Positions 27,481-63,443 of a stretch of DNA of 64,000 bases are shown here, one piece after another. The first letter of the stretch is position 1. Each line of letters starts with the position of its first letter. The DNA is from Desulfocapsaceae bacterium (GTDB lineage: Bacteria > Desulfobacterota > Desulfobulbia > Desulfobulbales > Desulfocapsaceae), in NCBI GenBank assembly GCA_030653035.1, contig JAUSAB010000023.1, positions 4,282-68,281 of the forward strand, read 5' to 3'. The translations under genes and the position numbers were made by a program. The notes beneath the pieces were generated by a model, which saw nothing but the letters and a program-made list of their open reading frames with translations, had not been told where the DNA came from and did no database searches.

Positions 27481-27493
27481 CAGGAGGGTGGAA

Positions 27494-28042
27494 ACTATGT
27501 TGCGGGTCTCATCACATCATCTCGTCTATGGTTCTCTTCGGGATTATCTCACCGACGAGGAACTGACTGACACCGATGACGAGCGGAACAGGCAGCAACT
27601 GGCACGCATGATGGTTGAGGAAAAGGGCTATGCCAAAGAAGACCTTGAACCCCGCCGCTTTATCGAGACTCTTTTTTCCGCCCTGTTTGTCCGCTCCACC
27701 ATTGAGCTTGTGGTCAGCCTTGAGGGGAAGAGGTTCATGATTATCCGCTACGCCCCTGGCTCCCTGGTCACCCGAGAACGTTCGGCCATTGCCGCGGCCA
27801 GGGTATTGGAAAAGCAGTATCAGATCCCGCTGGCCGTGGTCACCAACGGCCGGGACGCGGAGCTGCTTGATACCGCCACCGGCCAGGTGCTGGTCACCGG
27901 CATGGAGGCCATCCCTGACTGCCGGCAGGCGCGGGAGCTTCTTCCCACCCTGGTCTTTCGCGAGAGGATGGAAGGCAAGAAGCGGGAGCGGGAACTGCGG
28001 ATTCTTAATGCCTTTGATGTGGAGATATGCTGTCGAAGATAG
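27494..28042 (+). CDS. HsdR-N-terminal-like (PD-(D/E)xK fold family) small protein, possibly catalytically degenerate
   Basis: The pattern ...EEKGYAKEDLEPRRFIE...IELVVSLEGKRFMIIRYAPG...IPLAVVTNGRDAELLD resembles the HSDR_N_2 family, but RY stands where E-x-K is usual. Called from memory of the family only. Confidence 0.45.
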   Translation, partial: TMLRVSSHHLVYGSLRDYLTDEELTDTDDERNRQQLARMMVEEKGYAKEDLEPRRFIETLFSALFVRSTIELVVSLEGKRFMIIRYAPGSLVTRERSAIAAARVLEKQYQIPLAVVTNGRDAELLDTATGQVLVTGMEAIPDCRQARELLPTLVFRERMEGKKRERELRILNAFDVEICCRR

Positions 28043-28143
28043 GGGTCAGGGGATTTTTGAAGAGGTCGGATTTGTGTTTAGTGGGACGGCCTGATGTCTT
28101 AGATTTCATTTTAAATACTTTTTGAGTAATATTCCTTTCTATT

Positions 28144-31100
28144 ATGGATATACCAAGATTCACAGACGAAAATATTGCCCCAGAACGAAAAAAATCCCGC
28201 GCCGGCGATGGCTTCCAGGAGTTCGTCGCCGCTCTGCTTGTTAGAGAATTTGAAGACCTCACACTGTTCCCTATCGGAGGCAAGGACGGGGCCATCGACC
28301 ACACCATCCATTTTGCCGACGGAAAAGGAGTTGTCGAATGCAAAGATATCCAAGGCGGCTATGATCACGCCCTCAAGGCTTGGTTGGCAGTTGCCGATAA
28401 ACTCCGCCGCAATATCACGCCTGTCGACGGCCCTCCAACAGGACAAGGCCAATACCGCCCCTGGTACAACACCAAATCACCGATAAACACCTACCTTTTC
28501 TGCACCAGTTCCGAAATCGGCAATGAAGGGCAGCACCAGAACCTGGAAAGGGAAATCCAAGAGTTCTTTGCGGAAATATCTTGCAATTGTATTCACTTAT
28601 GCCATCTGTCCACAATTCAGGTAGAAGTCCTGCCCTGGAACCGGCTCCAAGCCAAAGTTCAAAAAAATGCCGATCTTGCTTTCAAGTGGTTCCCAGCCTG
28701 TCGTCCCACCGGTCTCAGCCCCCTAAAATCCTCCACGGATGCCCGCCTCAACTTCCGCAGCTACCTGGAACATCATCAGCTACCATTTTACAGTGTTGAG
28801 ATGTTTGTTGCGTCAGGCTTTTTGAGTCAAGACAATGCGCTGCCCGAGGTGTCCCACCTCTTCAGCCATTTGACAGGGGAAGGTGGCAATGGCCTGATTA
28901 TCACCGGCAAGGGAGGAATTGGCAAAACAAGACTGGTGCTTGAGATCGGTCGCCATGCAGAGCAAGAAGGTTGGTTGGTGCTGCAGGCCGGCAAACGATT
29001 CGAGGCCGCCTCTATCGACAGCCTTTGCCAGCGCATCACGACTACCCAGCCCATACTTATCCTGTTCGACTACGTGGAGGCTCAAAAGGGATTTTCCGAA
29101 AGCATTGACACCATCAACAATTACAACGAGGAATATGGTTACCGTATCCGCTATGTTGCCAACTGCCGAACTAATTTTTACAGCACCATTCGTGACATGG
29201 AGGGCCACAGGGAGGTCAACCTGAGTCCTGGCGGAATAAACGCCGGATTTTTCTTAACATACCGAGAGGCCATCGTACGTCACATCCTGGAGCATTGCGG
29301 ACTGGATGCACCCGAAGAGTATATTGCCCTATGTCGCGATCTCCCCATCTTGGCGGTTTTTATCAGCTTTCTCCGCCAAAATGGCCGGATGGCGGAACTG
29401 GCGGAATTGCGCCACGAAGAGAGTTTCGTGCCCTGGCTCAACAAACGCCTCACAGCAAGTCTCTCTAGCCTCTACCCGAACAACCCCGACGGCATGCGAC
29501 GGGATCTGCACCGGCTCCTGGTGCAATATCCCCTGTCGGAAAGGGGCCTGGAGCTGTTGGGCGATCAGGAGGAGCACCTGTATAGCCTGCACGTCGGACT
29601 TGCCAACGATGGCTGGGTTCTTGTCGATGACAGTGATTCATGGGTAAGCGCCCACGACATCTTCGTCGATCAGATTCTTGGTGATTTTTTCCAGCATTCC
29701 CAGTCCGCCCAACCAGAGATCAAGCAGGCACTAAATCTTTCCCGACGCCTCGCCAATATCAGATCCGCCCTGATCAGCTACCAGCGTATTTCCGAGGAAC
29801 TGGAATCGCTCCCCTGGAAGGACATGATCACCGAACAGATTGATAGCCATGGGGAAGAGTGGCTCCAGGTCCGCAGTATATTGCTGACCACACCCCTGCT
29901 GCGTCCCCAACAAGCGCTGGAATTGCTGGATGGTCGGCCCGAATTCTGGGAGGGGTTCGAGTGTCAGATTAGCACCCAAAATGCCCTTGGCTTTCTTGCC
30001 AGGCGCCAGGTCAGAGGGGAGTTGCGGCTCCCGTCACCTCTTCTCGACACCCTCTTGGTGTGGTTGACCAAGGCAGCGACCTGTCCGGGTCGAAGTAATT
30101 TCTTCCTCAACTGGGCACTGCGTCTATCCCCTACCAAATTCCAGGATGTCGTGCGTGATTGGATACAGGCCCAGCCACGGTTATTCCAAAGCCATTACCT
30201 CATGGTTGCTTGGCTGGAGGCTAAACTCCCGGCCATGGAGATCGTGGCGGCGGTAAAAAACTGGTGCAGCGCTTTCCCCAGTGATAGTCATCTGACCTTT
30301 TTGGCAAAGGCATGGCTGGATAACGGTGCGTCTTTGCAAGAGGCCAGGGATCAAATTTTGGCTTGGTTGCAAGCTGGCAATAACTGTACCGTGCTCGAAG
30401 CACAATTTGTCTACTCAAGCTGGCTCAATGCGGGCGGGGGAATCGAAGAGATCAAAGAGTTTATCCTGCAGTGGCTGCAAGCCGGCAATAACTGTACCGT
30501 GCTCGCAGTCAGCTTTATCTACAAAAGCTGGCTCGATGCGGGCGGGGGAATCAAAGAGGTCCAAGAGTTCATCCGGCAGTGGCTGCAAGCCGGAAATAAC
30601 TGTACCGCGCTCGAAGCACAATTTGTCTACAAAAGCTGGCTCGATGCGGGCGGTGGAATCGAAGAGGTCAAAGATTTCATCCTGCAGTGTCTGCAAGCCG
30701 GAAATAACTGTACTGCGCTCGAAGCACAATTTGTCTACAAAAGCTGGCTCGATGCGGGCGGTGGAATCGAAGAGGTCAAAGAGTTCATCCGGCAGTGGCT
30801 GCAATCCGGCAATAACTGTACCGCGCTCGAAGCACAATTTGTCTACACAAGCTGGCTCGATGCGGGCGGGGGAATCGAAGAGGTCAAAGAGTTCATCCTG
30901 AAGTGGCTGCAAGCTTGCAATAACTGTACCTCGCTCGATGCCAGATTTGTCTACAAAAGCTGGCTTGATGCGGGTGGGGGAATCGAAGAGGTCAAAGAGT
31001 TCATCCGGCAGTGGCTGCAATACCTCGACAATGCTGAACAAGAGAATGTCGATTTTCTCCTTCGAAGCTGGATGAAAGCGCATGGCGATTTTTCCTTGGT

Positions 31101-31743
31101 TCAGGAATCTGCCTGCCGGTGGCTGACAGCCAATAAAGAGAAATACGATGCGGTATATATCACCAAATACTTAGCAAGGGTTCGAGATTTGCCCGTTGCC
31201 ACCGCTAAGGACATCTTGAGCTGGTGTCGTTCCTTTTGCGGGAACGAAGACGCCATTTCCCGCTTGGCTAATTTGGGGCTAAACCTTCAACACGACGCTA
31301 TCATGGAGGAAGCCATGGAGACCTGGGCGCTTGTCCTGCCCCATGTCCTGCACCGGACAACCCTTATAGAGTGGCTGCAGAATCACGTTACCAACATCTT
31401 TATTAATCTGCGCTACAACCCCGGCCTGAGACGGGGTCAGAACACAGAAAAGCTGGTGACTCTATTCGCGTTATGGGTCCGGGACACGCGTTCCTTTGCG
31501 CAACTTCGGGTGTACCCAAACAATACTTCCCAACAAACCAAGGCCATCTTTCAAATGTTAGTGGATGGCCTTGCCCAGGGCCAGCTTGACGGAAAACGTG
31601 ATAAGGAAGGCATTCGGAACTTTCTCGTCTGGATCAATTCCTGGCGACCGGAAAGAAAAGAAAAAATCAAAGCCGCGTTTAATGTTCTCATTAACACTCC
31701 GGAACTCAAAGAATTATTTTATTGTATAGAGTTTAATAGCTAA
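28144..31743 (+). CDS. STAND-class P-loop NTPase with N-terminal Mrr-like PD-(D/E)xK nuclease motif and C-terminal 36-aa helical repeat array (Avs/bacterial-NLR-like candidate defence protein)
   Basis: N-terminus GFQEFVAALL...GGKDGAIDH...VVECK (D48/D52...E65-x-K67 by my count). Walker A ITGKGGIGKT (28906-28929) and Walker B ILILFDYVE (from 29053). The C-terminal ~450 aa shows a periodic WLxxG.N...FVYxSWLxAGGxxExVxxF pattern. Confidence 0.8.
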   Translation: MDIPRFTDENIAPERKKSRAGDGFQEFVAALLVREFEDLTLFPIGGKDGAIDHTIHFADGKGVVECKDIQGGYDHALKAWLAVADKLRRNITPVDGPPTGQGQYRPWYNTKSPINTYLFCTSSEIGNEGQHQNLEREIQEFFAEISCNCIHLCHLSTIQVEVLPWNRLQAKVQKNADLAFKWFPACRPTGLSPLKSSTDARLNFRSYLEHHQLPFYSVEMFVASGFLSQDNALPEVSHLFSHLTGEGGNGLIITGKGGIGKTRLVLEIGRHAEQEGWLVLQAGKRFEAASIDSLCQRITTTQPILILFDYVEAQKGFSESIDTINNYNEEYGYRIRYVANCRTNFYSTIRDMEGHREVNLSPGGINAGFFLTYREAIVRHILEHCGLDAPEEYIALCRDLPILAVFISFLRQNGRMAELAELRHEESFVPWLNKRLTASLSSLYPNNPDGMRRDLHRLLVQYPLSERGLELLGDQEEHLYSLHVGLANDGWVLVDDSDSWVSAHDIFVDQILGDFFQHSQSAQPEIKQALNLSRRLANIRSALISYQRISEELESLPWKDMITEQIDSHGEEWLQVRSILLTTPLLRPQQALELLDGRPEFWEGFECQISTQNALGFLARRQVRGELRLPSPLLDTLLVWLTKAATCPGRSNFFLNWALRLSPTKFQDVVRDWIQAQPRLFQSHYLMVAWLEAKLPAMEIVAAVKNWCSAFPSDSHLTFLAKAWLDNGASLQEARDQILAWLQAGNNCTVLEAQFVYSSWLNAGGGIEEIKEFILQWLQAGNNCTVLAVSFIYKSWLDAGGGIKEVQEFIRQWLQAGNNCTALEAQFVYKSWLDAGGGIEEVKDFILQCLQAGNNCTALEAQFVYKSWLDAGGGIEEVKEFIRQWLQSGNNCTALEAQFVYTSWLDAGGGIEEVKEFILKWLQACNNCTSLDARFVYKSWLDAGGGIEEVKEFIRQWLQYLDNAEQENVDFLLRSWMKAHGDFSLVQESACRWLTANKEKYDAVYITKYLARVRDLPVATAKDILSWCRSFCGNEDAISRLANLGLNLQHDAIMEEAMETWALVLPHVLHRTTLIEWLQNHVTNIFINLRYNPGLRRGQNTEKLVTLFALWVRDTRSFAQLRVYPNNTSQQTKAIFQMLVDGLAQGQLDGKRDKEGIRNFLVWINSWRPERKEKIKAAFNVLINTPELKELFYCIEFNS
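30355..31002 (+). repeat. Six in-frame tandem copies of a 108-bp (36-aa) unit inside the STAND gene
   Basis: Units start at 30355, 30463, 30571, 30679, 30787 and 30895. They are near-identical at the DNA level (ILxWLQAGNNCTxLEAQFVYxSWLDAGGGIEEVKEF). More degenerate units flank them on both sides (~30140-31250). Confidence 0.9.
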
Positions 31744-31866
31744 TAGCCATTCTCAGCAAACACAAGGAAATATGAAAGGAATATGAAAGCCGTGGAATAT
31801 GCATTCTATAAGCCACGTTCATTGGCCGTCGCTGGTTACCCTTAGCATTAGCGGCTTTGCACCACC

Positions 31867-31900
31867 TTGACAAAACGTACGTATTGCCGTACGGTAACAT
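31867..31900 (+). promoter_or_regulatory. Putative yefM-yoeB promoter/operator
   Basis: TTGACA at 31867-31872, then two CGTACG palindromic hexamers (31876-31881 and 31888-31893) 12 bp centre-to-centre. This mirrors the paired-palindrome operators of YefM/YoeB loci. AAGGAG SD lies at 31906-31911. Confidence 0.4.
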
Positions 31901-31917
31901 CAATCAAGGAGAACATC

Positions 31918-32160
31918 ATGCACACACTCACGGCAAGCCAAGCACGCTCAAACCTCTACCGCATCATTGACGAAGCGGCCACAAACCATGAACCGGTAGT
32001 CATCACCGGCAAACGAAATAATGCCGTGCTTATCTCGGCTGAAGATTGGGCATCGATTCAAGAAACCATGTACTTGCTGTCCGTGCCGGGTATGCGCGAG
32101 TCCATTAGGGAAGGGTTGCAGACTCCAGTTGACGAATGTGCCAAGGAACTGGACTGGTGA
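31918..32160 (+). CDS. yefM: Phd/YefM-family antitoxin
   Basis: MHTLTASQARSNLYRIIDEAATNHEPVVITGKRNNAVLISAEDWASIQETMYLLS is a typical YefM sequence. There is a strong SD 6 nt upstream of ATG 31918. Confidence 0.85.
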   Translation: MHTLTASQARSNLYRIIDEAATNHEPVVITGKRNNAVLISAEDWASIQETMYLLSVPGMRESIREGLQTPVDECAKELDW

Positions 32161-32420
32161 CTTGGGAATTGGTTTATACAAAACACGCCCAGAAAGATGC
32201 TCAGAAATTATCTTCAGCAGGTCTGAAAGAAAAAACACAGGCACTTTTGATGGTTCTGCGTGAAAATCCATTTCAAAATCTACCACCTTATCAAAAATTG
32301 GTTGGTAATTTGTCCGGCGCTTATTCACGGCGGATCAACATTCAGCACAGGTTGGTTTATCAAGTTTTAGAAGATCATAATGTCGTTAAAGTGCTGAGAA
32401 TATGGTCCCATTACGAATAG
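32157..32420 (+). CDS. yoeB: YoeB/Txe-family mRNA interferase toxin
   Basis: WELVYTKHAQKDAQKL...NPFQNLPPYQKLVGNLSGAYSRRINIQHRLVYQV...VKVLRIWSHYE. The GTG start overlaps the antitoxin stop (GTGA). Confidence 0.85.
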   Translation: MTWELVYTKHAQKDAQKLSSAGLKEKTQALLMVLRENPFQNLPPYQKLVGNLSGAYSRRINIQHRLVYQVLEDHNVVKVLRIWSHYE

Positions 32421-32525
32421 CGCCGCTAACCGTTTGACATGGCCATGACAAAAAAAGGACCCTCGGCCTTCATGTGCAGGAAAACGAACCCAGAACCCTT
32501 TCTCCTAACCCCGATGAACGGGATA

Positions 32526-32586
32526 AGTGCCTTTCGCAGATTATTTTCTTGCAAAAAAAAAACAAGAAAATAATCTGTAAGGCACT
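32526..32586. repeat. 61-nt long hairpin/palindrome
   Basis: AGTGCCTT-tcg-CAGATTATTTTCTTG-c(a)10-CAAGAAAATAATCTG-t-AAGGCACT. Arms of 15 bp perfect plus 8 bp perfect, with an A10 loop. Confidence 0.7.
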
Positions 32587-32603
32587 AAAGAGTCCTTGCA
32601 GCC

Positions 32604-33008
32604 ATGAACGCCACCAACATCCTTTATGTCATTATCACCATTGTTATTGCTGACTATTTCCTGGAAAGGGGGCTCAGCTTTCTCAACTGCCGGAGTATCG
32701 CCACGCAGCTGCCTGATGAGGTGAAGGGGATTTACAGCGAGGAGAAGTATCAACAGTCCCAGGAGTACAAGAGGGCAAACTGCCGGTTTGAGCTGGTCAC
32801 CGCCATCCTGCAGGTTGTGCTCCTCCTGGCCCTGCTCATGGGTGGCGGCTTTGCCTTTATCGACGGGCTTGTCCGGGGCATGGTGCAGGCGGAGTTGCTG
32901 GTCTCTCTGCTCTTCTTTGCCCTGCTTTTTTGGTATGTCTCCCGAGAGCGGTTCAAGCTCTGGTCAACGCGAAGGCCGATCTTACTTACCAGCGCGCTCC
33001 GGGCATGA
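32604..33008 (+). pseudogene. Truncated N-terminal fragment of an M48/Ste24-type metallopeptidase
   Basis: The first ~105 aa (TM helix, LPDEVKGIYSEEKYQQSQEYKRANCRFELV, TM helices) look like the Peptidase_M48_N region. No HExxH catalytic domain follows, and the frame ends after an unrelated tail. Confidence 0.45.
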
Positions 33009-33362
33009 CGATTCTGACAGAGGCGGGAGCGTGTCCGAAGGCTGAAAAGATCCTGTGGGCTGCCGGTGCTCACCGAGATGAAGAAAGTGGCAAAGTCGGG
33101 GCGTACTGTACCTGGCCAGCAGGGATAAGTTGTAACTGTTTGACAATGAAACGGTTCATGGTAAAGTATGCAAACGAAATCCCATCTGGGTAGCAGTGTT
33201 TTTAAAGAATTCACGAATGATTGGTTTTTCGCCTCGTCCGCTTTCACACCAAGGCATTGTTGGGCCGTACGAATTAGATCTGGGTGCTGACATTCTGGTG
33301 TGGAATATATAACTGCCCAATTAAGCCGTTAATTTGTTGATCGTCAAAGAGAAGGAACAATC

Positions 33363-58774: not shown

Positions 58775-60504
58775 AACAGGGGAATAGGGGGCCACTCCCG
58801 AATGGCGATAGTTTAAGCGTTTTTTTAAACCGCAGGGAGTAAACTTGGGACTGTCCCGAATGGCACTAGTTTAAGCGTTTCCAGCACGATATGTGCTCCG
58901 ATGTGGAATCTCTTTCATTTCATGCCTTGGCGAGGTTAGCCGTTGGTAATTTTTGGGTCGTCGCTTTAGGCATCGAGGTTCTTGTCTCCCTGGACGTTGT
59001 CTGATTGGTGTGTTGGTCATTGCGTCATATAAATCACTGATCAGCCTGAAATGCTCTGCTCTACTGATCTTCGTCTGATTTAAATGAGGTTCCCAGTTAC
59101 GAAGGGCCTGCACACTGCCCTTAAAACTCACCACTCGAACCGCAATATCCGCTTCTTCCGCCGCTTCGTACATCAATCGTCGGACACAGTTGTAGGCGAT
59201 AATATACATCAAGATTTCTTTGCGGATCATCTCTGGTGTTTGGCAGCGTAGGATATCCAGGCCCATAGTCGTCTTGATGTCGCGAAAGAATAACTCGACA
59301 TCCCACCGCTTGAAGTAAAGTTCAGCAATTTGCTCAGCAGGATATAGCTTGGCATCAAGCAGGGTGGTAACGATGTAAAACCCTTGTGTCCTAAATCCAG
59401 AATGTGGCACCGTGACCTTGATCTGTCGCAAAACCAGCTCTTCCGGAAGTTCCTCCCATGCGTCTTTCGAATACGACAGAATGGCGTTATAGACGGGGCG
59501 TTCCCATTTTATCAGCAGATCGTTGCCTCCGAGCTTTTTGAGGCTGCCTGCTGCAGTGACCGGCGTTCTTCTGGCAAGGGTAATAACGCTGTCAACGCCT
59601 TGTTTTGCCAAGTTTGCGATGTCGAAATAACTACAGAACCCTTTGTCTCCAAGAAAGATGTCTCCCTGCTTAAACATCTTCCACTGCTTGCGGAACAGCG
59701 GGAGCTCGCTACTCTTTTTATTACCGATGGCGTAGCTGAGTAAGGCCCCACTTTCCAGAGAAAAACAAGCGCAGATACGAGCCGTTGGGAACCCGCACCC
59801 CGGCTTCTGAGAGGCCGACTGCGGCCAAGCTTCCTGATTATCAGGGGTATCCGGCATGCTGACTCCTGTCCCGTCAACAACAATGACCCGCCGGTTATTC
59901 AGCAATCCGGCCACCGGCATTTTATCAAGCCGATCTGCCGTGTGTTCAAAAATCTCAACGAGCATCTGTTCATCCAACTTCTTACGAGCCGTGCAATACG
60001 AAGCGGTCGAAGACGAAGGAACCTTGCCTCCTTTGATAGAGACATAGGACTGAAGCTTACGAATCACTTCCTTGCAGCCTCCGTCCGCATCCACCACCTG
60101 ACTGAAAAAGGCCCAAAAGATATTCTCTTTGGAGAAAATCCTTCGGCGACTCATGACCCCGTCCCGCTCCGGCTTGAGAAGTGTGCGGGGGATAAACTTT
60201 TCAAAGACCTCGCCGATCTGCTTGAAAGATTTTTGCTTCAACAGAGCTATCTTTTCGGCAAGTTTCTGCTGGGCCGAACGGGGTTTTTGACGCAGGGTCC
60301 GTAGATGCAATCCTGGAAGGAATGGCATTGTCTTTTTTGTATTTTGCATTGGTAAATATACCAATTTTAGCCAATGTTTTCAGCTTGTTTCTCATACAAA
60401 AAACCCTTAAACTAGTGCCATTCGGGACAGTCCCGGTTTTGCTGGCCTCCGCCCTTAAACTAGCGCCATTTGGGGCTGTCCCTCCTTTCACTCCTTCCCC
60501 TGTT
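58775..60504 (-). mobile_element. IS4-family insertion sequence with two copies of a ~30-bp terminal motif at each end
   Basis: Inner perfect 29-bp inverted repeats GGGACTGTCCCGAATGGCACTAGTTTAAG (58847-58875 vs 60406-60434). A second degenerate copy lies at each end (58787-58819 and 60452-60482). Outermost inverted AACAGGGGAA / TTCCCCTGTT sits at 58775-58784 and 60495-60504. I found no flanking direct repeat. Confidence 0.8.
58871..60364 (-). CDS. IS4-family DDE transposase
   Basis: 497 aa with the Y-(2)-R-(3)-E-(6)-K signature (YFKRWDVELFFRDIK) and DDE context (VVDGT..., LGDKGF...). The stop codon lies inside the left inverted repeat. Confidence 0.85.
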   Translation of the reverse strand: MVYLPMQNTKKTMPFLPGLHLRTLRQKPRSAQQKLAEKIALLKQKSFKQIGEVFEKFIPRTLLKPERDGVMSRRRIFSKENIFWAFFSQVVDADGGCKEVIRKLQSYVSIKGGKVPSSSTASYCTARKKLDEQMLVEIFEHTADRLDKMPVAGLLNNRRVIVVDGTGVSMPDTPDNQEAWPQSASQKPGCGFPTARICACFSLESGALLSYAIGNKKSSELPLFRKQWKMFKQGDIFLGDKGFCSYFDIANLAKQGVDSVITLARRTPVTAAGSLKKLGGNDLLIKWERPVYNAILSYSKDAWEELPEELVLRQIKVTVPHSGFRTQGFYIVTTLLDAKLYPAEQIAELYFKRWDVELFFRDIKTTMGLDILRCQTPEMIRKEILMYIIAYNCVRRLMYEAAEEADIAVRVVSFKGSVQALRNWEPHLNQTKISRAEHFRLISDLYDAMTNTPIRQRPGRQEPRCLKRRPKNYQRLTSPRHEMKEIPHRSTYRAGNA

Positions 60505-61411: not shown

Positions 61412-61810
61412 AAGAACACCCCGTGGAATTGGTTAAATATCAATCGTTGGTGTGTTCTTTATATACGGACTGCAGGGGAGGGTATATGTGATGGGGTTCA
61501 GGAGATGGGAACGGAGGGGAGATACCTCTATCAGCAAATTCTGCCCCAGAATTTGCGTTATGGGAGAAAATCAACTACAAGAAAAAGATGTGTGATAATG
61601 GGGCGGAATTCAATTCTGCCCCATTATTTATTGACAACAAAGATGATGGGCGCAAAAGAACCAGGGTAGAATCGGGGACGGGTAGAATCAGAGGCAAACT
61701 ATATTTTATGCATAGACAAACGTGGTCTGATCCCGATTGCACCGCTGGACGCCAAACAGCTGGCGAAAGTGAAAATAGCGTTAGCCTCAAGAATATAAGG
61801 AGTATTGCTA

Positions 61811-62434
61811 GTGCATGACTATTCAATAGACAATCATCCAAAAGAAAAAATTCTCTTTGTCCTAGCATTCTTGGCCATTGCTTTAGCCCCTATTCTTAAT
61901 TCCATAGTCCAAAATGTTTTGAAAACAATTGGTGCGAGTGCTGGGTGGAGTTCTGCTCCAATTACAGCCATCCCGGTGTTTGGCTTGTTTGGTTTGTTGT
62001 ACTGGATTTTTAATAAATACCTTTGGCGAATTTCTATGTTTAGGAAATTCCTTCTAGTCCCTGATTTAAATGGCAAATGGACAGTTGAGGGCTCTACAAC
62101 GCTGAAGAATGGAAAAGAAGTTGAATATGCTTGGGGCGGCGTATTTACTGTCACTCAATCTTGGTCAAAAATATTGATTTATCTGCAAGCAAGTCAATCA
62201 GCATCAAAAAGTGTATCAGCTAGTATACATTTAGAAGACAGCGTCGGGCATAGACTCTTGTATCAATACGAAAATGAGCCAAGTGCTGATCAGTTAGAAC
62301 TAAAAAAGCATTCTGGTTCCGCTGAACTTTTATTTGACATAGAAGGCCTAACAGCTAAAGGACATTATTATACCGATCAGCATCGAAATACTGTTGGAAC
62401 TATGAAATTAAGGAAAAGCGAAAATGATAATTAA
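61811..62434 (+). CDS. CBASS effector candidate: two N-terminal TM helices + beta-strand-rich C-terminal domain (S-2TM-beta / Cap15-like)
   Basis: TM1 ILFVLAFLAIALAPIL and TM2 ITAIPVFGLFGLLYWIF, then LNGKWTVEG...WGGVFTVTQSWSKILIYL...LLYQYENEP...GSAELLFD...KGHYYTD...GTMKLRK. GTG 61811 sits 9 nt after AAGGAG. It overlaps the NTase gene by 11 nt. Confidence 0.65.
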   Translation: MHDYSIDNHPKEKILFVLAFLAIALAPILNSIVQNVLKTIGASAGWSSAPITAIPVFGLFGLLYWIFNKYLWRISMFRKFLLVPDLNGKWTVEGSTTLKNGKEVEYAWGGVFTVTQSWSKILIYLQASQSASKSVSASIHLEDSVGHRLLYQYENEPSADQLELKKHSGSAELLFDIEGLTAKGHYYTDQHRNTVGTMKLRKSENDN

Positions 62435-63443
62435 CCGCCTAGATCGTTTGTCAGCACGCCGTACAGATTCAACTATAATTACAGCTAAACTTCTCAACGA
62501 AGCATACAAGGGATTAAGTCAGAGTGAGTCTGTACGATATATTATCGGAGCAATGCAATCGATTGATCCTGAATACACAAAAAACACTTATGCCCAGGGT
62601 GAGCGTGTATGCAATCAACTACGTAATCGCTTAACCACTACTTGTGGATATGAATACCAAGGCTCAGTCACAAATGATACTCATATCAAGGCGAAAAGTG
62701 ACATCGATGTTCTTTTGTTAATTGATAAATTTATTGGTCTAGAAAAACCCCAAGAGCCAAAGAACTCTTATAAAGGTGACCCAATTCAAGATCTTGTTGA
62801 CCTCCGTGCAGAAGCAATTACAAAGCTTAAAGCTGCATTCCCCGAGGCAACTGTCGACTCTAGTGGTAGCAAATCAATAGCAGTTGAAGGAGGCTCATTG
62901 CGGCGCAAAGTCGATGTTGTGCCATCTAATTGGTACAATACGAACCGATATACTACAACAGGGGATAAAATCTATAGAGGTGTTCAGATTCTTGATGCAA
63001 GTAAACGAGTTAGATTGAAAAACACTCCTTTTCTGCATAACGCATGGATTGGACATAAGGACAAAATCACAAATGGAGGTCTGAGAAAAGCGGCACGCCT
63101 CTTAAAATCATTAAAGTACGACTCAGAGTCAATTGATCTCTCAAGTTATGATCTGGTTTCTCTTGCATTCAATATTCCAGACAATGAATTGAATGTGCCA
63201 CATGGTATGGAATTAACAATTCTTAATTCATGTCACAATTTTTGTTCGGAGTTGCAACAAAATCGTCTCAAAAGGGAGTCTTTGGAGGTGCCGGATAAAC
63301 ACCGAAAAATATTCACAGAGGGTCATGCGACACTAAACGGTTTGAATCAACTTGTAGCTGAATTGGAAAGTCTGGTTAAGGATGTGCTCACTGAAAACCA
63401 ACGTTCATTCAAGAAACTTGCTGAGGCAAGAGTTGAATATTAA
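62424..63443 (+). CDS. SMODS-type cGAS/DncV-like nucleotidyltransferase (CD-NTase) of a type I CBASS
   Basis: Pol-beta NTase signature QGSVTNDTHIKAKSDIDVLLL (GS...DxD) plus a third acidic residue in RRKVDVVPSNWY. 339 aa. It is adjacent to the 2TM effector. Confidence 0.7.
   Translation: MIINRLDRLSARRTDSTIITAKLLNEAYKGLSQSESVRYIIGAMQSIDPEYTKNTYAQGERVCNQLRNRLTTTCGYEYQGSVTNDTHIKAKSDIDVLLLIDKFIGLEKPQEPKNSYKGDPIQDLVDLRAEAITKLKAAFPEATVDSSGSKSIAVEGGSLRRKVDVVPSNWYNTNRYTTTGDKIYRGVQILDASKRVRLKNTPFLHNAWIGHKDKITNGGLRKAARLLKSLKYDSESIDLSSYDLVSLAFNIPDNELNVPHGMELTILNSCHNFCSELQQNRLKRESLEVPDKHRKIFTEGHATLNGLNQLVAELESLVKDVLTENQRSFKKLAEARVEY

What the first reader, a model, noticed from the sequence alone, without database searches (positions are those of the whole stretch)
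28144..31743. Single-gene STAND NTPase with Mrr-like nuclease head and repeat-array tail: candidate Avs/NLR-like antiphage sensor
Seen in the sequence: a 1199-aa ORF whose first ~70 aa carry a PD-(D/E)xK pattern (GGKDGAIDH ... VVECK), preceded by the GFQEFVAALL helix typical of Mrr_cat-type restriction nucleases. It has a P-loop (GKGGIGKT) and a hhhhD Walker B (ILILFDY). A ~350-aa helical region follows, then more than 10 units of a 36-aa repeat. Established knowledge: effector, STAND NTPase and repeat sensor in that order is the architecture of antiviral STAND (Avs) proteins and bacterial NLR-related proteins, which recognise phage proteins through the repeat domain and then activate the N-terminal effector. 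Inference: this is a stand-alone abortive-infection or defence protein. I do not recognise the repeat type (WLQAGNNC...FVYxSWLDAGGGIEE) as TPR, WD40, LRR or any Avs1-4 sensor I know, so it may be an undescribed subfamily. A type II TA pair sits directly downstream and decayed genes flank the region, which fits an accessory locus.
Basis: partly seen in the sequence, partly recalled or inferred. Interest (0 to 1): 0.8.

Follow-up and report, generated by a model that had tools for sequence, protein, structure and literature searches.

The report
Avs4-like nuclease–STAND–repeat immune sensor gene
This 1199-residue gene most likely encodes a single-protein bacterial immune sensor built like the known anti-phage protein Avs4 (DNA-cutting head, ATP-driven switch, helical-repeat sensor tail), but it belongs to an uncharacterised family whose repeat tail evolves by copy-number change and focused diversification, much as in fungal immune receptors.

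Summary
ORF 28144-31743 (+) encodes 1199 aa with a PD-(D/E)xK head (D48, D52, E65, K67), a P-loop (K261), Walker B (D309), and six near-identical 36-aa repeats plus about five degenerate ones. All catalytic residues are invariant or nearly so in 43 homologues. STAND hallmarks are also conserved: sensor-1 R342, GxP-like P401, and an MHD-like H504-D505 after a winged helix. AlphaFold models are confident (pLDDT 91 and 90). The best full-length PDB fold match is EcAvs4 (E 5.6e-10), and the head best superposes on the Avs4 Mrr-like nuclease (TM 0.48). Family members swap the head for caspase, trypsin, TIR, phosphoesterase or NNH5 domains. The gene and a Phd/YoeB pair form a 4.5-kb strain-specific cassette in a variable hotspot. 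No sequence model names the protein: Pfam hits are below threshold, PADLOC is negative for 15 members, and PDB sequence searches find nothing. The repeats are TPR-like hairpins (34 aa in most relatives) with 3-21 copies, up to 100% internal identity, and two hypervariable helix positions. Verdict: an uncharacterised Avs-like family, well supported as architecture and inferred as mechanism. Defence-island context is weak and nothing is experimentally tested.

The parts
28144..31743 (+). Complete gene, 1199 aa plus stop: nuclease head, STAND NTPase, helical-repeat sensor
28144..28770 (+). aa 1-209: Mrr-like PD-(D/E)xK nuclease domain. Catalytic candidates are D48 (28285-28287), D52 (28297-28299), E65 (28336-28338) and K67 (28342-28344). 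D52 sits immediately before strand beta2, so it is probably the canonical 'PD' aspartate.
   Evidence: Invariant residues; Mrr_cat hits in 5/25 homologues; model pLDDT 91.3; Foldseek 8dgf_B Avs4 prob 0.99, TM 0.48, plus Can2, AF1548, FokI, Hjc
28831..29229 (+). aa 230-362: P-loop nucleotide-binding domain. Walker A G255-T262 (K261 = 28924-28926), Walker B I304-D309 plus E312 (D309 = 29068-29070), sensor-1 R342.
   Evidence: five parallel strands in the model at 250-255, 278-282, 303-308, 334-342, 355-359
29230..29658 (+). aa 363-505: helical domain with GxP-like L400-P401-I-L-A, and a winged helix (H466-488 plus hairpin 492-502) ending in the invariant MHD-like H504-D505 (H504 = 29653-29655)
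   Evidence: the [AV]HD[VL].AD motif is the most conserved peptide of the family
29659..30030 (+). aa 506-629: all-helical spine linking the NTPase module to the repeat array
30031..30354 (+). aa 630-737: three degenerate helical-hairpin repeat units (N-terminal cap of the array)
30355..31002 (+). aa 738-953: six near-identical 36-aa (108-nt) TPR-like units, 81-96% nt identity, acidic (pI 4.4)
31003..31218 (+). aa 954-1025: two degenerate repeat units
31219..31743 (+). aa 1026-1199: conserved helical C-terminal cap domain (W1027, L1089, W1111, W1163, W1167 conserved), basic (pI 8.9)
28042..32584 (.). Strain-specific 4.5-kb cassette (STAND gene plus Phd/YoeB), absent from a relative whose flanking DNA is about 90% identical. 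It occupies a variable hotspot between HSDR_N_2 and DAHP synthase.
31867..32420 (+). Phd/YefM antitoxin (31867-32160) and YoeB/ParE-type toxin (32136-32420). Co-inserted cargo, not a conserved partner of the family.

Best explanation
The gene encodes a stand-alone NLR-like (Avs-like) immune sensor. In the resting state the protein is a nucleotide-bound, autoinhibited monomer. The acidic TPR-like repeat solenoid and its C-terminal cap bind a foreign protein, most probably a phage protein. Binding releases the winged-helix/His504 lock on the nucleotide site, and the NTPase modules oligomerise. This brings the N-terminal Mrr-like PD-(D/E)xK domains together so that composite active sites form and cut DNA indiscriminately, which aborts the infection.

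Shown here: the three-module anatomy, conservation of all catalytic and switch residues, fold-level similarity to Avs4, interchangeability of the head with other death effectors, accessory (presence/absence) status, and repeat-array dynamics with focused non-synonymous variation.

Inferred by analogy to Avs3, Avs4 and Avs7: ligand-induced oligomerisation, nuclease activation by proximity, DNA as the substrate, a phage protein as the trigger, and the abortive outcome.
For: Architecture and motifs. Nuclease head: Mrr_cat, Mrr_cat_2, NERD and DUF4143 hits in family members; confident model; fold hits with probability 0.9-0.99 are PD-(D/E)xK nucleases, and Avs4's own head gives the best TM of 0.48. 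STAND: the best Pfam families are AAA_16 and nSTAND_NTPase5, with PF25199 precomputed for 26 of 59 homologues; the model shows NBD, HD and WHD; full-length Foldseek gives EcAvs4 E 5.6e-10, SAMD9 8e-6, EfAvs5 3e-5, STAND-TPR 6mfv 5e-5, plus NLRP2/7 and AVAST5. Effector swapping on the same chassis: caspase, Trypsin_2, TIR_2, Metallophos, NNH5. Single-gene system with no recurrent neighbour in about 28 loci. Patchy distribution over at least 7 phyla. Strain-specific cassette with a TA module. Sensor dynamics: 3-21 units, intra-protein identity up to 100%, two hypervariable positions with N:S of 117:10 and 97:15 against 1305:801 overall. Mechanistic precedent: Avs domain logic, and Mrr/Cap4 heads forming active dimers inside tetramers (10.64898/2026.08.25.746987; PMC13581612).
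Against: No experimental data exist for any family member. The window protein has no above-threshold hit in Pfam, NCBIfam or PADLOC, and 15 family members are all PADLOC-negative. PDB sequence-profile searches find nothing. Foldseek E-values for the isolated head are all above 1e-3. Full-length TM-scores are low (0.14-0.22) because of multi-domain geometry. Homologous loci are mostly embedded among housekeeping genes and not in classical defence islands; only an occasional PIN TA pair, RHS locus or fused SIR2/AAA part is nearby. The family was not found in viral contigs. The codon tally uses non-independent pairs and is not a formal dN/dS test.
Confidence: 0.65

Rival explanations
1. Same NLR-like switch, but the trigger is not a phage structural protein. 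The protein would sense another mobile element, a bacterial toxin or effector, a cellular stress signal or a non-self (kin-discrimination) cue, and execute programmed cell death. This is the role proposed for conflict systems of multicellular bacteria and for fungal allorecognition NLRs.
For: Homologous loci are not enriched in recognisable defence genes. Characterised Avs sensors recognise conserved phage protein folds (PMC13581612). Fungal allorecognition NLRs, by contrast, show repeat homogenisation and hypervariable sites (PMC4986451) like those seen here. The alternative heads (caspase, trypsin, TIR, NNH5) are typical of the Aravind-type conflict systems (PMC8195603).
Against: Every experimentally characterised prokaryotic effector-STAND-TPR protein so far is antiphage. 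The gene is strain-specific and co-inserted with a TA module in a variable hotspot. A CBASS system in the same genome shows that the host is under phage pressure.
Confidence: 0.2
2. An NTP-dependent (type IV-like) restriction endonuclease. The Mrr-type head cleaves modified foreign DNA, the P-loop module acts as a motor or regulator, and the repeats bind DNA.
For: Mrr_cat domains are best known from modification-dependent restriction enzymes (PMC2938202, listed). The head is the best-conserved part of the family.
Against: The NTPase has the STAND switch features (WHD with an invariant His-Asp, GxP) and not those of a translocase. The repeat array is strongly acidic (pI 4.4, net charge -13), so DNA binding is unlikely. 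The nuclease head is replaced in relatives by proteases, TIR and a phosphoesterase, which makes no sense for a restriction enzyme. No methyltransferase or specificity partner recurs nearby.
Confidence: 0.05
3. A non-immune STAND protein (regulator or scaffold), or a gene whose repeat array is mis-assembled in this MAG, so that the exact protein shown does not exist as such.
For: Defence and non-defence STAND clades are interspersed in the superfamily tree (PMC13581612). Units that are 94-96% identical over 108 nt are hard to assemble from short reads, so copy number may be wrong.
Against: There is no DNA-binding output domain. Catalytic nuclease residues are under strict conservation. The ORF is intact through the array, and homologues from many independent assemblies show the same organisation. 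A mis-assembly would change the repeat number, not the nature of the gene.
Confidence: 0.07

Closest known systems
Avs4 (antiviral STAND type 4; EcAvs4, PDB 8DGF)
   Same: Same three-module order: Mrr-like PD-(D/E)xK nuclease, STAND NTPase, TPR-like helical sensor, as a single-gene system. It is the best full-length fold match (E 5.6e-10), and its head gives the best TM for the isolated head (0.48, prob 0.99). It is the likely template for the mechanism: ligand-induced tetramer with the nuclease activated by dimerisation.
   Different: No significant sequence similarity. The PADLOC Avs4 model gives only E 0.0086 and 11 bits on the P-loop, and PDB profile searches do not retrieve 8DGF. The protein here is shorter (1199 aa against about 1540). 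The sensor here is a tandem array of near-identical units with variable copy number, whereas Avs4 has a non-repetitive TPR-like domain that binds the portal protein. The trigger here is unknown.
Pfam PF25199 nSTAND_NTPase5 (novel STAND NTPase clade 5)
   Same: Apart from the generic AAA_16 domain, it is the best-scoring STAND family for the NTPase module of the window protein and its homologues. It is listed for 26 of 59 homologues in the precomputed annotation.
   Different: All scores measured here (19.5-25.5 bits) lie below the Pfam gathering threshold of 34 bits. This is therefore a peripheral or sister group, not a certified member.
Fungal NLRs with highly internally conserved TPR/ANK/WD repeats (e.g. 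Podospora NB-ARC-TPR, HET-E/NWD family; PMC4986451)
   Same: Effector-NOD-repeat architecture with combinatorial effector swapping. Repeats within one gene are nearly identical, copy number varies, and a few hypervariable positions lie on one helix face (searches compared).
   Different: Different kingdom, different NTPase clade, and a different repeat sequence family. In fungi, positive selection was shown with formal tests and population data. Here there is only a crude non-synonymous/synonymous tally.
Other nuclease-headed Avs families (Avs3 and Avs7, with Cap4 or Mrr heads) and Avs2-trypsin, Avs5-SIR2
   Same: Same modular logic. The alternative heads seen in this family (trypsin-like, TIR, caspase) parallel the effector repertoire of the Avs families.
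   Different: Different NTPase clades and sensors, and no sequence-level relationship was detected.
Mrr / Mrr_cat (PF04471) type IV restriction nucleases
   Same: Helix (F-Q-x-F), then G-x-D-G-x-I-D, then (E/Q)-x-K motif arrangement; E/Q alternation at position 65; alpha-beta-beta-beta-alpha-beta core.
   Different: The window head does not hit the Pfam model on its own. It carries a conserved ~100-aa extension (GQxQYxPWY, C120, H154, W165, W182-F183). It is fused to a STAND switch and not to a winged-helix DNA reader.

Membership tests
STAND NTPase superfamily | Walker A GxxxxGK[ST] and Walker B hhhhD followed by an acidic residue | tested here: met
   G255-T262 and I304-D309 plus E312. G255, G258, G260, K261, D309 and E312 are invariant in 43/43; position 262 is T or S.
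STAND NTPase superfamily | Sensor-1 arginine, a helical domain with a GxP-type motif, and a winged-helix domain carrying a conserved histidine (MHD-like) that contacts the nucleotide | tested here: met
   R342, P401 (LPILA) and H504-D505 are invariant in 43/43. The model shows HD 364-460 and WHD 466-502. Contact of H504 with the nucleotide could not be checked because there is no ligand in the model.
STAND NTPase superfamily | Fold similarity to solved STAND proteins | tested here: met
   Foldseek: 8dgf_B E 5.6e-10, 9zjz SAMD9 7.9e-6, 9jap Avs5 3.3e-5, 6mfv 5.3e-5, NLRP2 2.3e-4. TM-scores are low (0.14-0.22) owing to multi-domain geometry.
Pfam nSTAND_NTPase5 (PF25199) | Score at or above the gathering threshold (34 bits) | tested here: not met
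   Window protein 19.5 bits, E 8.9e-4. Homologues 23.2-25.5 bits.
Avs4 as defined by PADLOC (PDLC02169) | Significant full-length HMM match | tested here: not met
   E 0.0086, 11.3 bits, residues 248-300 only. 0 of 15 family members match any Avs model at E < 0.005.
Avs4 as defined by PADLOC (PDLC02169) | Mrr-like nuclease, STAND and TPR-like sensor in one polypeptide | tested here: met
Avs4 | Recognition of the phage portal protein and phage-dependent DNA degradation | not testable with these tools
   Requires genetics and biochemistry.
Mrr_cat / PD-(D/E)xK nuclease | Pfam Mrr_cat match | tested here: inconclusive
   No hit for the window head even at E <= 10. 5 of 25 homologous heads hit Mrr_cat (best E 1.5e-5), 2 hit Mrr_cat_2, and 1 each hit NERD and DUF4143.
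Mrr_cat / PD-(D/E)xK nuclease | Catalytic D...(D/E/Q)xK on an alpha-beta-beta-beta-alpha-beta core | tested here: met
   D48, D52 and K67 in 43/43; E65 in 40/43 and Q in 3/43. Model elements H20-32, E39-41, E53-57, E60-67, H73-91, E114-121. Fold hits to Avs4 head, Can2, AF1548, R.BspD6I, FokI and Hjc with probability 0.8-0.99, but E from 0.02 to 0.3.
TPR repeat | Pfam TPR-family HMM match | tested here: not met
   No TPR, PPR, HEAT or Sel1 hit at E <= 1 on the window protein. Pfam 'hits' in the repeats of homologues have 0 significant stretches and are artefacts.
TPR repeat | 34-residue helix-turn-helix unit forming a solenoid | tested here: met
   The dominant period is 34 aa in 119 family proteins and 36 aa in 10, including this one. 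There are two helices per unit in the model. Solenoid and STAND-TPR fold matches.
Antiphage defence system (operational definition) | Enrichment next to known defence genes | tested here: inconclusive
   About 28 loci were inspected. There is no recurrent neighbour and few defence genes. The window copy sits next to a TA pair in a variable hotspot. No statistical test was possible.
Antiphage defence system (operational definition) | Immune-type effector domains on most members (criterion used by PMC13581612) | tested here: met
   A nuclease head in about 50 of 59 first-round homologues and most of the top 150. Alternatives are caspase, trypsin, TIR and Metallophos.
One of the 589 STAND clades / 684 sensor clusters of Lee et al. 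2026 (PMC13581612) | Listed in the paper's Supplementary Tables 2-5 | not testable with these tools
   The supplementary files are not held for either version. Accessions to look up: MDO9041095.1, WP_085214346.1, WP_146048752.1, HEX8360103.1, MEO1389408.1.

The most novel reading that the evidence does not exclude
This is a bacterial NLR family whose sensor is a programmable array. TPR-like units are amplified, deleted and homogenised by recombination, while a handful of surface positions per unit (two on the first helix, others on the second helix and the loop) are kept hypervariable. Specificity would then be re-tuned quickly by repeat shuffling. That is the diversification mode known from fungal allorecognition NLRs, and it differs from the fixed sensors that recognise conserved folds in characterised Avs proteins. 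If true, bacteria would have a repeat-shuffling route to immune-receptor diversity alongside DGR-driven hypermutation.
Probability: 0.3. Interest if true: 0.65.

Novelty: new variant of a known kind. Interest (0 to 1): 0.45.

Why it matters
Avs/NLR-like proteins are the main way bacteria recognise phage proteins directly. Only a few of the 90 or more predicted families have known triggers. This family (about 680 representative clusters at E <= 1e-30) is invisible to PADLOC and below threshold in Pfam, so current annotation pipelines miss it and label it 'ATP-binding protein'. It offers a compact, single-gene test case with clear mutational controls (K261, D309, D52/E65/K67, H504). Its repeat array has natural copy-number and sequence variants that could show how specificity is encoded. 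It also provides a bacterial parallel to the concerted evolution of fungal NLR repeats, which bears on how NLR-type receptors diversify across kingdoms.

Tried and rejected
(1) Direct HMM annotation of the window protein (Pfam, NCBIfam, PADLOC) gave only sub-threshold P-loop hits. An NCBIfam KDPG-aldolase 'hit' (E 2e-6, 0 stretches) is a repeat artefact.

(2) Sequence-profile searches of PDB with the head alignment and the full-length alignment found nothing meaningful. The top hits (BIG, mS29, ArsA) are noise or P-loop only.

(3) Pfam names attached to homologues in the big database (SPP1_GP23-1, Pox_D5, Smr, DUF5990, VapB, HAT_PRP39_C) were checked and rejected. They are summed short-motif matches inside the repeats, with 0 significant stretches.

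(4) The top E-value Foldseek hits for the head (Mglu glutaminase) were rejected: TM about 0.2 and rmsd above 12 A.

(5) HSDR_N_2 as a functional partner or a decayed flank was rejected. It is conserved backbone in relatives that lack the STAND gene, and PADLOC is negative.

(6) The TA pair as an obligatory partner was rejected, because it does not recur in other loci.

(7) A search for insertion signatures (direct repeats, integrase, tRNA) around the cassette found none. There is only a REP-like palindrome at the right edge.

(8) The promoter/terminator scan was at chance level.

(9) The viral-contig scan was negative.

(10) A nucleic-acid-binding (PPR/TALE-like) reading of the repeats was considered and rejected, on charge (pI 4.4) and on the spread of variable positions.

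(11) An attempt to find the family in the 2026 STAND census failed because the supplements are not held.

Full report
OBSERVATION. It is identical to GenBank MDO9041095.1, annotated only as 'ATP-binding protein' from a Desulfocapsaceae MAG. The quoted motifs lie at residues 23-32 (GFQEFVAALL), 45-53 (GGKDGAIDH), 63-67 (VVECK), 255-262 (GKGGIGKT, K261) and 304-310 (ILILFDY). Tandem Repeats Finder reports a 108-nt period, 6.1 copies, 90% matches at 30364-31020. In protein register there are six 36-aa units at aa 738-953 (nt 30355-31002), 81-96% identical in DNA. They are flanked by three degenerate units upstream (aa 630-737) and two downstream (aa 954-1025). 'More than 10 units' is therefore true only if the degenerate units are counted.

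NOT CHANCE. A word-indexed search found 58 homologues at 27-40% identity. An exhaustive HMMER search of 1.84 billion representative proteins with a 15-sequence profile found 678 representatives at E <= 1e-30 and 1650 at E <= 1e-3. In a 43-sequence alignment the following are invariant: D48, G49, I51, D52, K67, G255, G258, G260, K261, R263, D309, Y310, E312, R342, P401, A404, H504, D505 and D509. Position 65 is E in 40 sequences and Q in 3. Both enzymatic modules are thus under purifying selection.

THE HEAD (aa 1-209). The window sequence alone does not hit Mrr_cat, even at E <= 10. Of 25 homologous heads scanned individually, 5 hit Mrr_cat (best E 1.5e-5), 2 hit Mrr_cat_2, and 1 each hit NERD and DUF4143. 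All of these are PD-(D/E)xK families. An AlphaFold2 model built on the 25-sequence alignment is confident (pLDDT 91.3, pTM 0.86). It shows helix 20-32, strands 39-41, 53-57 and 60-67, helix 73-91 and strand 114-121, which is the restriction-endonuclease core. Foldseek against PDB gives no hit at E <= 1e-3. However, all hits with high probability and sensible superposition are PD-(D/E)xK nucleases: the nuclease domain of EcAvs4 (8dgf_B; prob 0.99, TM 0.48, rmsd 4.0 A over 171 columns), Can2, AF1548, R.BspD6I, FokI (TM 0.45), Hjc, SfsA and Hachiman. The E/Q alternation at position 65 is typical of Mrr-type enzymes (my own knowledge). D52 lies immediately before strand 2, so I infer that D52, and not D48, is the canonical 'PD' aspartate. 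Both are invariant. A family-specific extension (GQxQYxPWY at 99-108, C120, H154, W165, W182-F183) enlarges the domain to about 210 aa.

THE CENTRE (aa 230-505). Pfam's best families are AAA_16 (E 1.1e-5) and nSTAND_NTPase5 (E 8.9e-4, 19.5 bits), both below the gathering threshold. Homologues reach 23-25 bits against a cutoff of 34. The full-length model (43-sequence alignment; pLDDT 89.6, pTM 0.67) shows a five-stranded P-loop domain, a helical domain and a winged helix (helices 466-488, hairpin 492-502). The sequence carries the classical STAND switch set (Leipe et al. 2004; my own knowledge of the family definition): Walker A, Walker B plus E312, sensor-1 R342, a GxP-like LPILA (P401), and an invariant His-Asp (H504-D505) directly after the winged-helix hairpin. 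The last of these corresponds to the MHD motif of NB-ARC proteins. Full-length Foldseek against PDB puts EcAvs4 first (E 5.6e-10, alignment across the whole chain). SAMD9, EfAvs5, the archaeal STAND-TPR protein 6mfv, NLRP2, NLRP7 and AVAST5 follow, interleaved with generic alpha-solenoids such as importins. TM-scores are low (0.14-0.22), as expected when multi-domain proteins in different conformations are superposed globally. The E-values rest on local 3Di/sequence alignment.

THE TAIL (aa 506-1199). It is entirely helical. Each repeat unit forms two helices, so it is a TPR-like hairpin. Across the family the dominant period is 34 aa, the canonical TPR length (119 proteins). Ten proteins, including this one and the Methylomagnum homologue, have a 36-aa variant with a two-residue insertion. 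The consensus is A-x-F-V-Y-x-A-W-L-D-A-G-G-D-x-E-L-V-x-x-x-I-x-x-W-L-x-x-H-x-x-x-x-E. No Pfam repeat family matches. Pfam names attached to homologues (SPP1_GP23-1, Pox_D5, Smr, DUF5990 and others) are artefacts of summed short matches, with zero significant stretches. The core array is strongly acidic (pI 4.4, net charge -13) and the C-terminal cap is basic (pI 8.9). This argues for a protein ligand and against a nucleic-acid ligand. Unit number ranges from 3 to 21 among homologues. Units within one protein reach 100% identity, and the mean intra-protein identity (0.46) exceeds the inter-protein identity (0.32). The arrays therefore expand, contract and homogenise independently in each lineage. 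Within proteins, variation is concentrated at two positions four residues apart on the first helix (pair-difference 0.71 and 0.62, against 0.48 or less at every other position). A codon tally over 179 within-gene unit pairs from 11 loci gives non-synonymous:synonymous counts of 117:10 and 97:15 at these sites, against 1305:801 overall. Further excesses occur at positions 23, 28 and 32-34. This tally is crude: the pairs are not independent, there is no correction for the number of sites, and recombination is ignored. Even so, the pattern matches what was documented for fungal NLR TPR, ANK and WD repeats: high internal conservation, repeat-number polymorphism, and positively selected sites on the concave face (PMC4986451).

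MODULARITY. Most family members carry the same nuclease head, with the P-loop at about residue 254. On the same NTPase-plus-repeat chassis, other members carry a caspase (Peptidase_C14, E 4e-20), trypsin-like proteases (Trypsin_2, E 4.5e-14; several proteins), TIR_2 (E 4e-23), a calcineurin-like phosphoesterase (E 1.7e-8), the NACHT-associated helical domain NNH5 (E 6.5e-12), or unknown heads. Such effector swapping is the signature of NLR-like conflict systems (PMC8195603; PMC13581612).

GENOMIC CONTEXT. In the window the order is PrmA(-), RACo, pterin-binding methyltransferase, HSDR_N_2 (27488-28042), the STAND gene, Phd/YefM, YoeB, a truncated M48 protease fragment, class-II DAHP synthase, and a PAS histidine kinase. 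In a more distant relative (L036, anchor protein 89% identical), HSDR_N_2 is directly followed by DAHP synthase. In a very close relative (L034, anchor protein 98% identical, DNA about 90%), the same interval holds about 8 kb of unrelated cargo and no STAND gene. DNA homology between the window and L034 stops at 28041, the end of HSDR_N_2, and resumes at 32585. The window-specific segment 28042-32584 therefore contains exactly the STAND gene and the TA pair. It is a strain-specific cassette in a variable hotspot. No integrase, tRNA or target duplication marks it. An 83-nt palindromic REP-like element lies at its right edge. Elsewhere the family is patchy: Acidobacteriota, Chloroflexota, Planctomycetota, Verrucomicrobiota, Pseudomonadota, Actinomycetota, Cyanobacteria, Armatimonadota, a Longimicrobium MAG, and Desulfobacterota here. 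It was not found in viral contigs. In about 28 loci no neighbouring gene recurs, apart from a shared block in four related Acidobacteriota. The surroundings are mostly housekeeping genes, with an occasional PIN TA pair, an RHS locus, or, in one case, a SIR2_2 plus AAA_15/21 part fused or read through at the C-terminus. The family thus behaves as a single-gene, horizontally mobile accessory system. Classical defence-island enrichment was not demonstrated.

MECHANISM. By analogy with Avs3, Avs4 and Avs7, sensor binding of a phage protein triggers STAND oligomerisation, and Mrr or Cap4 heads form active dimers within a tetramer (PMC13581612). I propose the following sequence: ligand capture by the acidic repeat solenoid and cap; release of the WHD-His504 lock; nucleotide-dependent oligomerisation; proximity-induced activation of the PD-(D/E)xK heads; non-specific DNA cleavage; abortive infection. 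The anatomy, conservation, fold relationship, modularity and accessory status are shown here. Oligomerisation, substrate, trigger and outcome are inferred. Confidence is about 0.65 for the antiphage version. A further 0.2 or so goes to the same switch responding to a non-phage cue.

COMPARISON AND NOVELTY. The protein works like Avs4 but is not a member of Avs4 by sequence criteria: the PADLOC Avs4 model gives 11 bits on the P-loop only, and 0 of 15 family members match. Its nearest catalogued NTPase family is Pfam nSTAND_NTPase5, but below threshold. The 2026 census of prokaryotic STANDs (589 clades, 684 sensor clusters, seeds that included Mrr-headed proteins) may well contain it. I could not check this because the supplementary tables are not held. 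Given that census, another Avs-like family is not surprising in itself. The distinctive feature is the homogenised, copy-number-variable TPR-like array with focused hypervariability. I found no description of this for characterised Avs sensors in the papers read. I rate it a new variant of a known kind, with interest 0.45.

CAVEATS. No experiment exists for any member. The source is a MAG, and the number of near-identical repeat units may be mis-assembled. AlphaFold inter-domain geometry (pTM 0.67) should not be over-read. The statistics on repeat variation are descriptive only.

Noticed in passing
window 61805-63443 (+): A complete type I CBASS pair in the low-GC end of the window (GC 0.39-0.44). 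The 2TM/Cap15 effector (61805-62434; Pfam Cap15_CD_rec E 5e-32, PADLOC 2TM effector E 3e-63) overlaps a CD-NTase cyclase (62424-63443; PADLOC E 2.8e-120). It is about 30 kb from the STAND gene, so it is a separate defence islet.
   Followed up: partly
window 58871-60364 (-): An IS4-type DDE transposase (DDE_Tnp_1, E 1.2e-28) beside the CBASS islet, within the region where GC drops to 0.37-0.44. It suggests a recently acquired mobile segment.
   Followed up: no
window 32507-32589; L035 10915-10994: An 83-nt palindromic REP/MITE-like element (perfect 15-nt inverted repeat 32537-32551 / 32563-32577 around an A-rich loop) at the right edge of the STAND+TA cassette. A 94%-identical copy lies inverted at a different intergenic site (between the pterin methyltransferase and HSDR_N_2) in a related genome.
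   Followed up: partly
window 28042-33362; L034 11525-19633; L036 11541-11598: The interval between HSDR_N_2 and DAHP synthase is an integration hotspot. It is empty in L036. In L034 it holds 8 kb of signalling and other cargo (FIST, PAS-GGDEF, SpoIIAA-like, ferritin, ADH). In the window it holds STAND+Phd/YoeB. A truncated M48 protease fragment persists in both the window (32604-33008) and L034.
   Followed up: yes
L037 10001-15580 (protein P0007): One family member is called as a single 1859-aa protein with an extra C-terminal SIR2_2 domain plus an AAA_15/AAA_21 ATPase. This is either a true fusion of two defence modules or a read-through of adjacent genes.
   Followed up: partly
window 27488-28042 (+): A stand-alone 184-aa HSDR_N_2 protein (type I restriction R-subunit N-terminal, PD-(D/E)xK-like; E 3.8e-11). 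It is conserved in synteny after the corrinoid methyltransferase genes in all three relatives examined. Its function is unknown and it is unrelated to the STAND gene despite the adjacency.
   Followed up: partly
L008, L011, L012, L028 (about 2-6 kb upstream of the STAND gene in each): Four Acidobacteriota loci share a block of about five upstream genes next to their STAND homologue. This is probably vertical inheritance within Pyrinomonadaceae-like genomes. The identity of the block was not determined.
   Followed up: no
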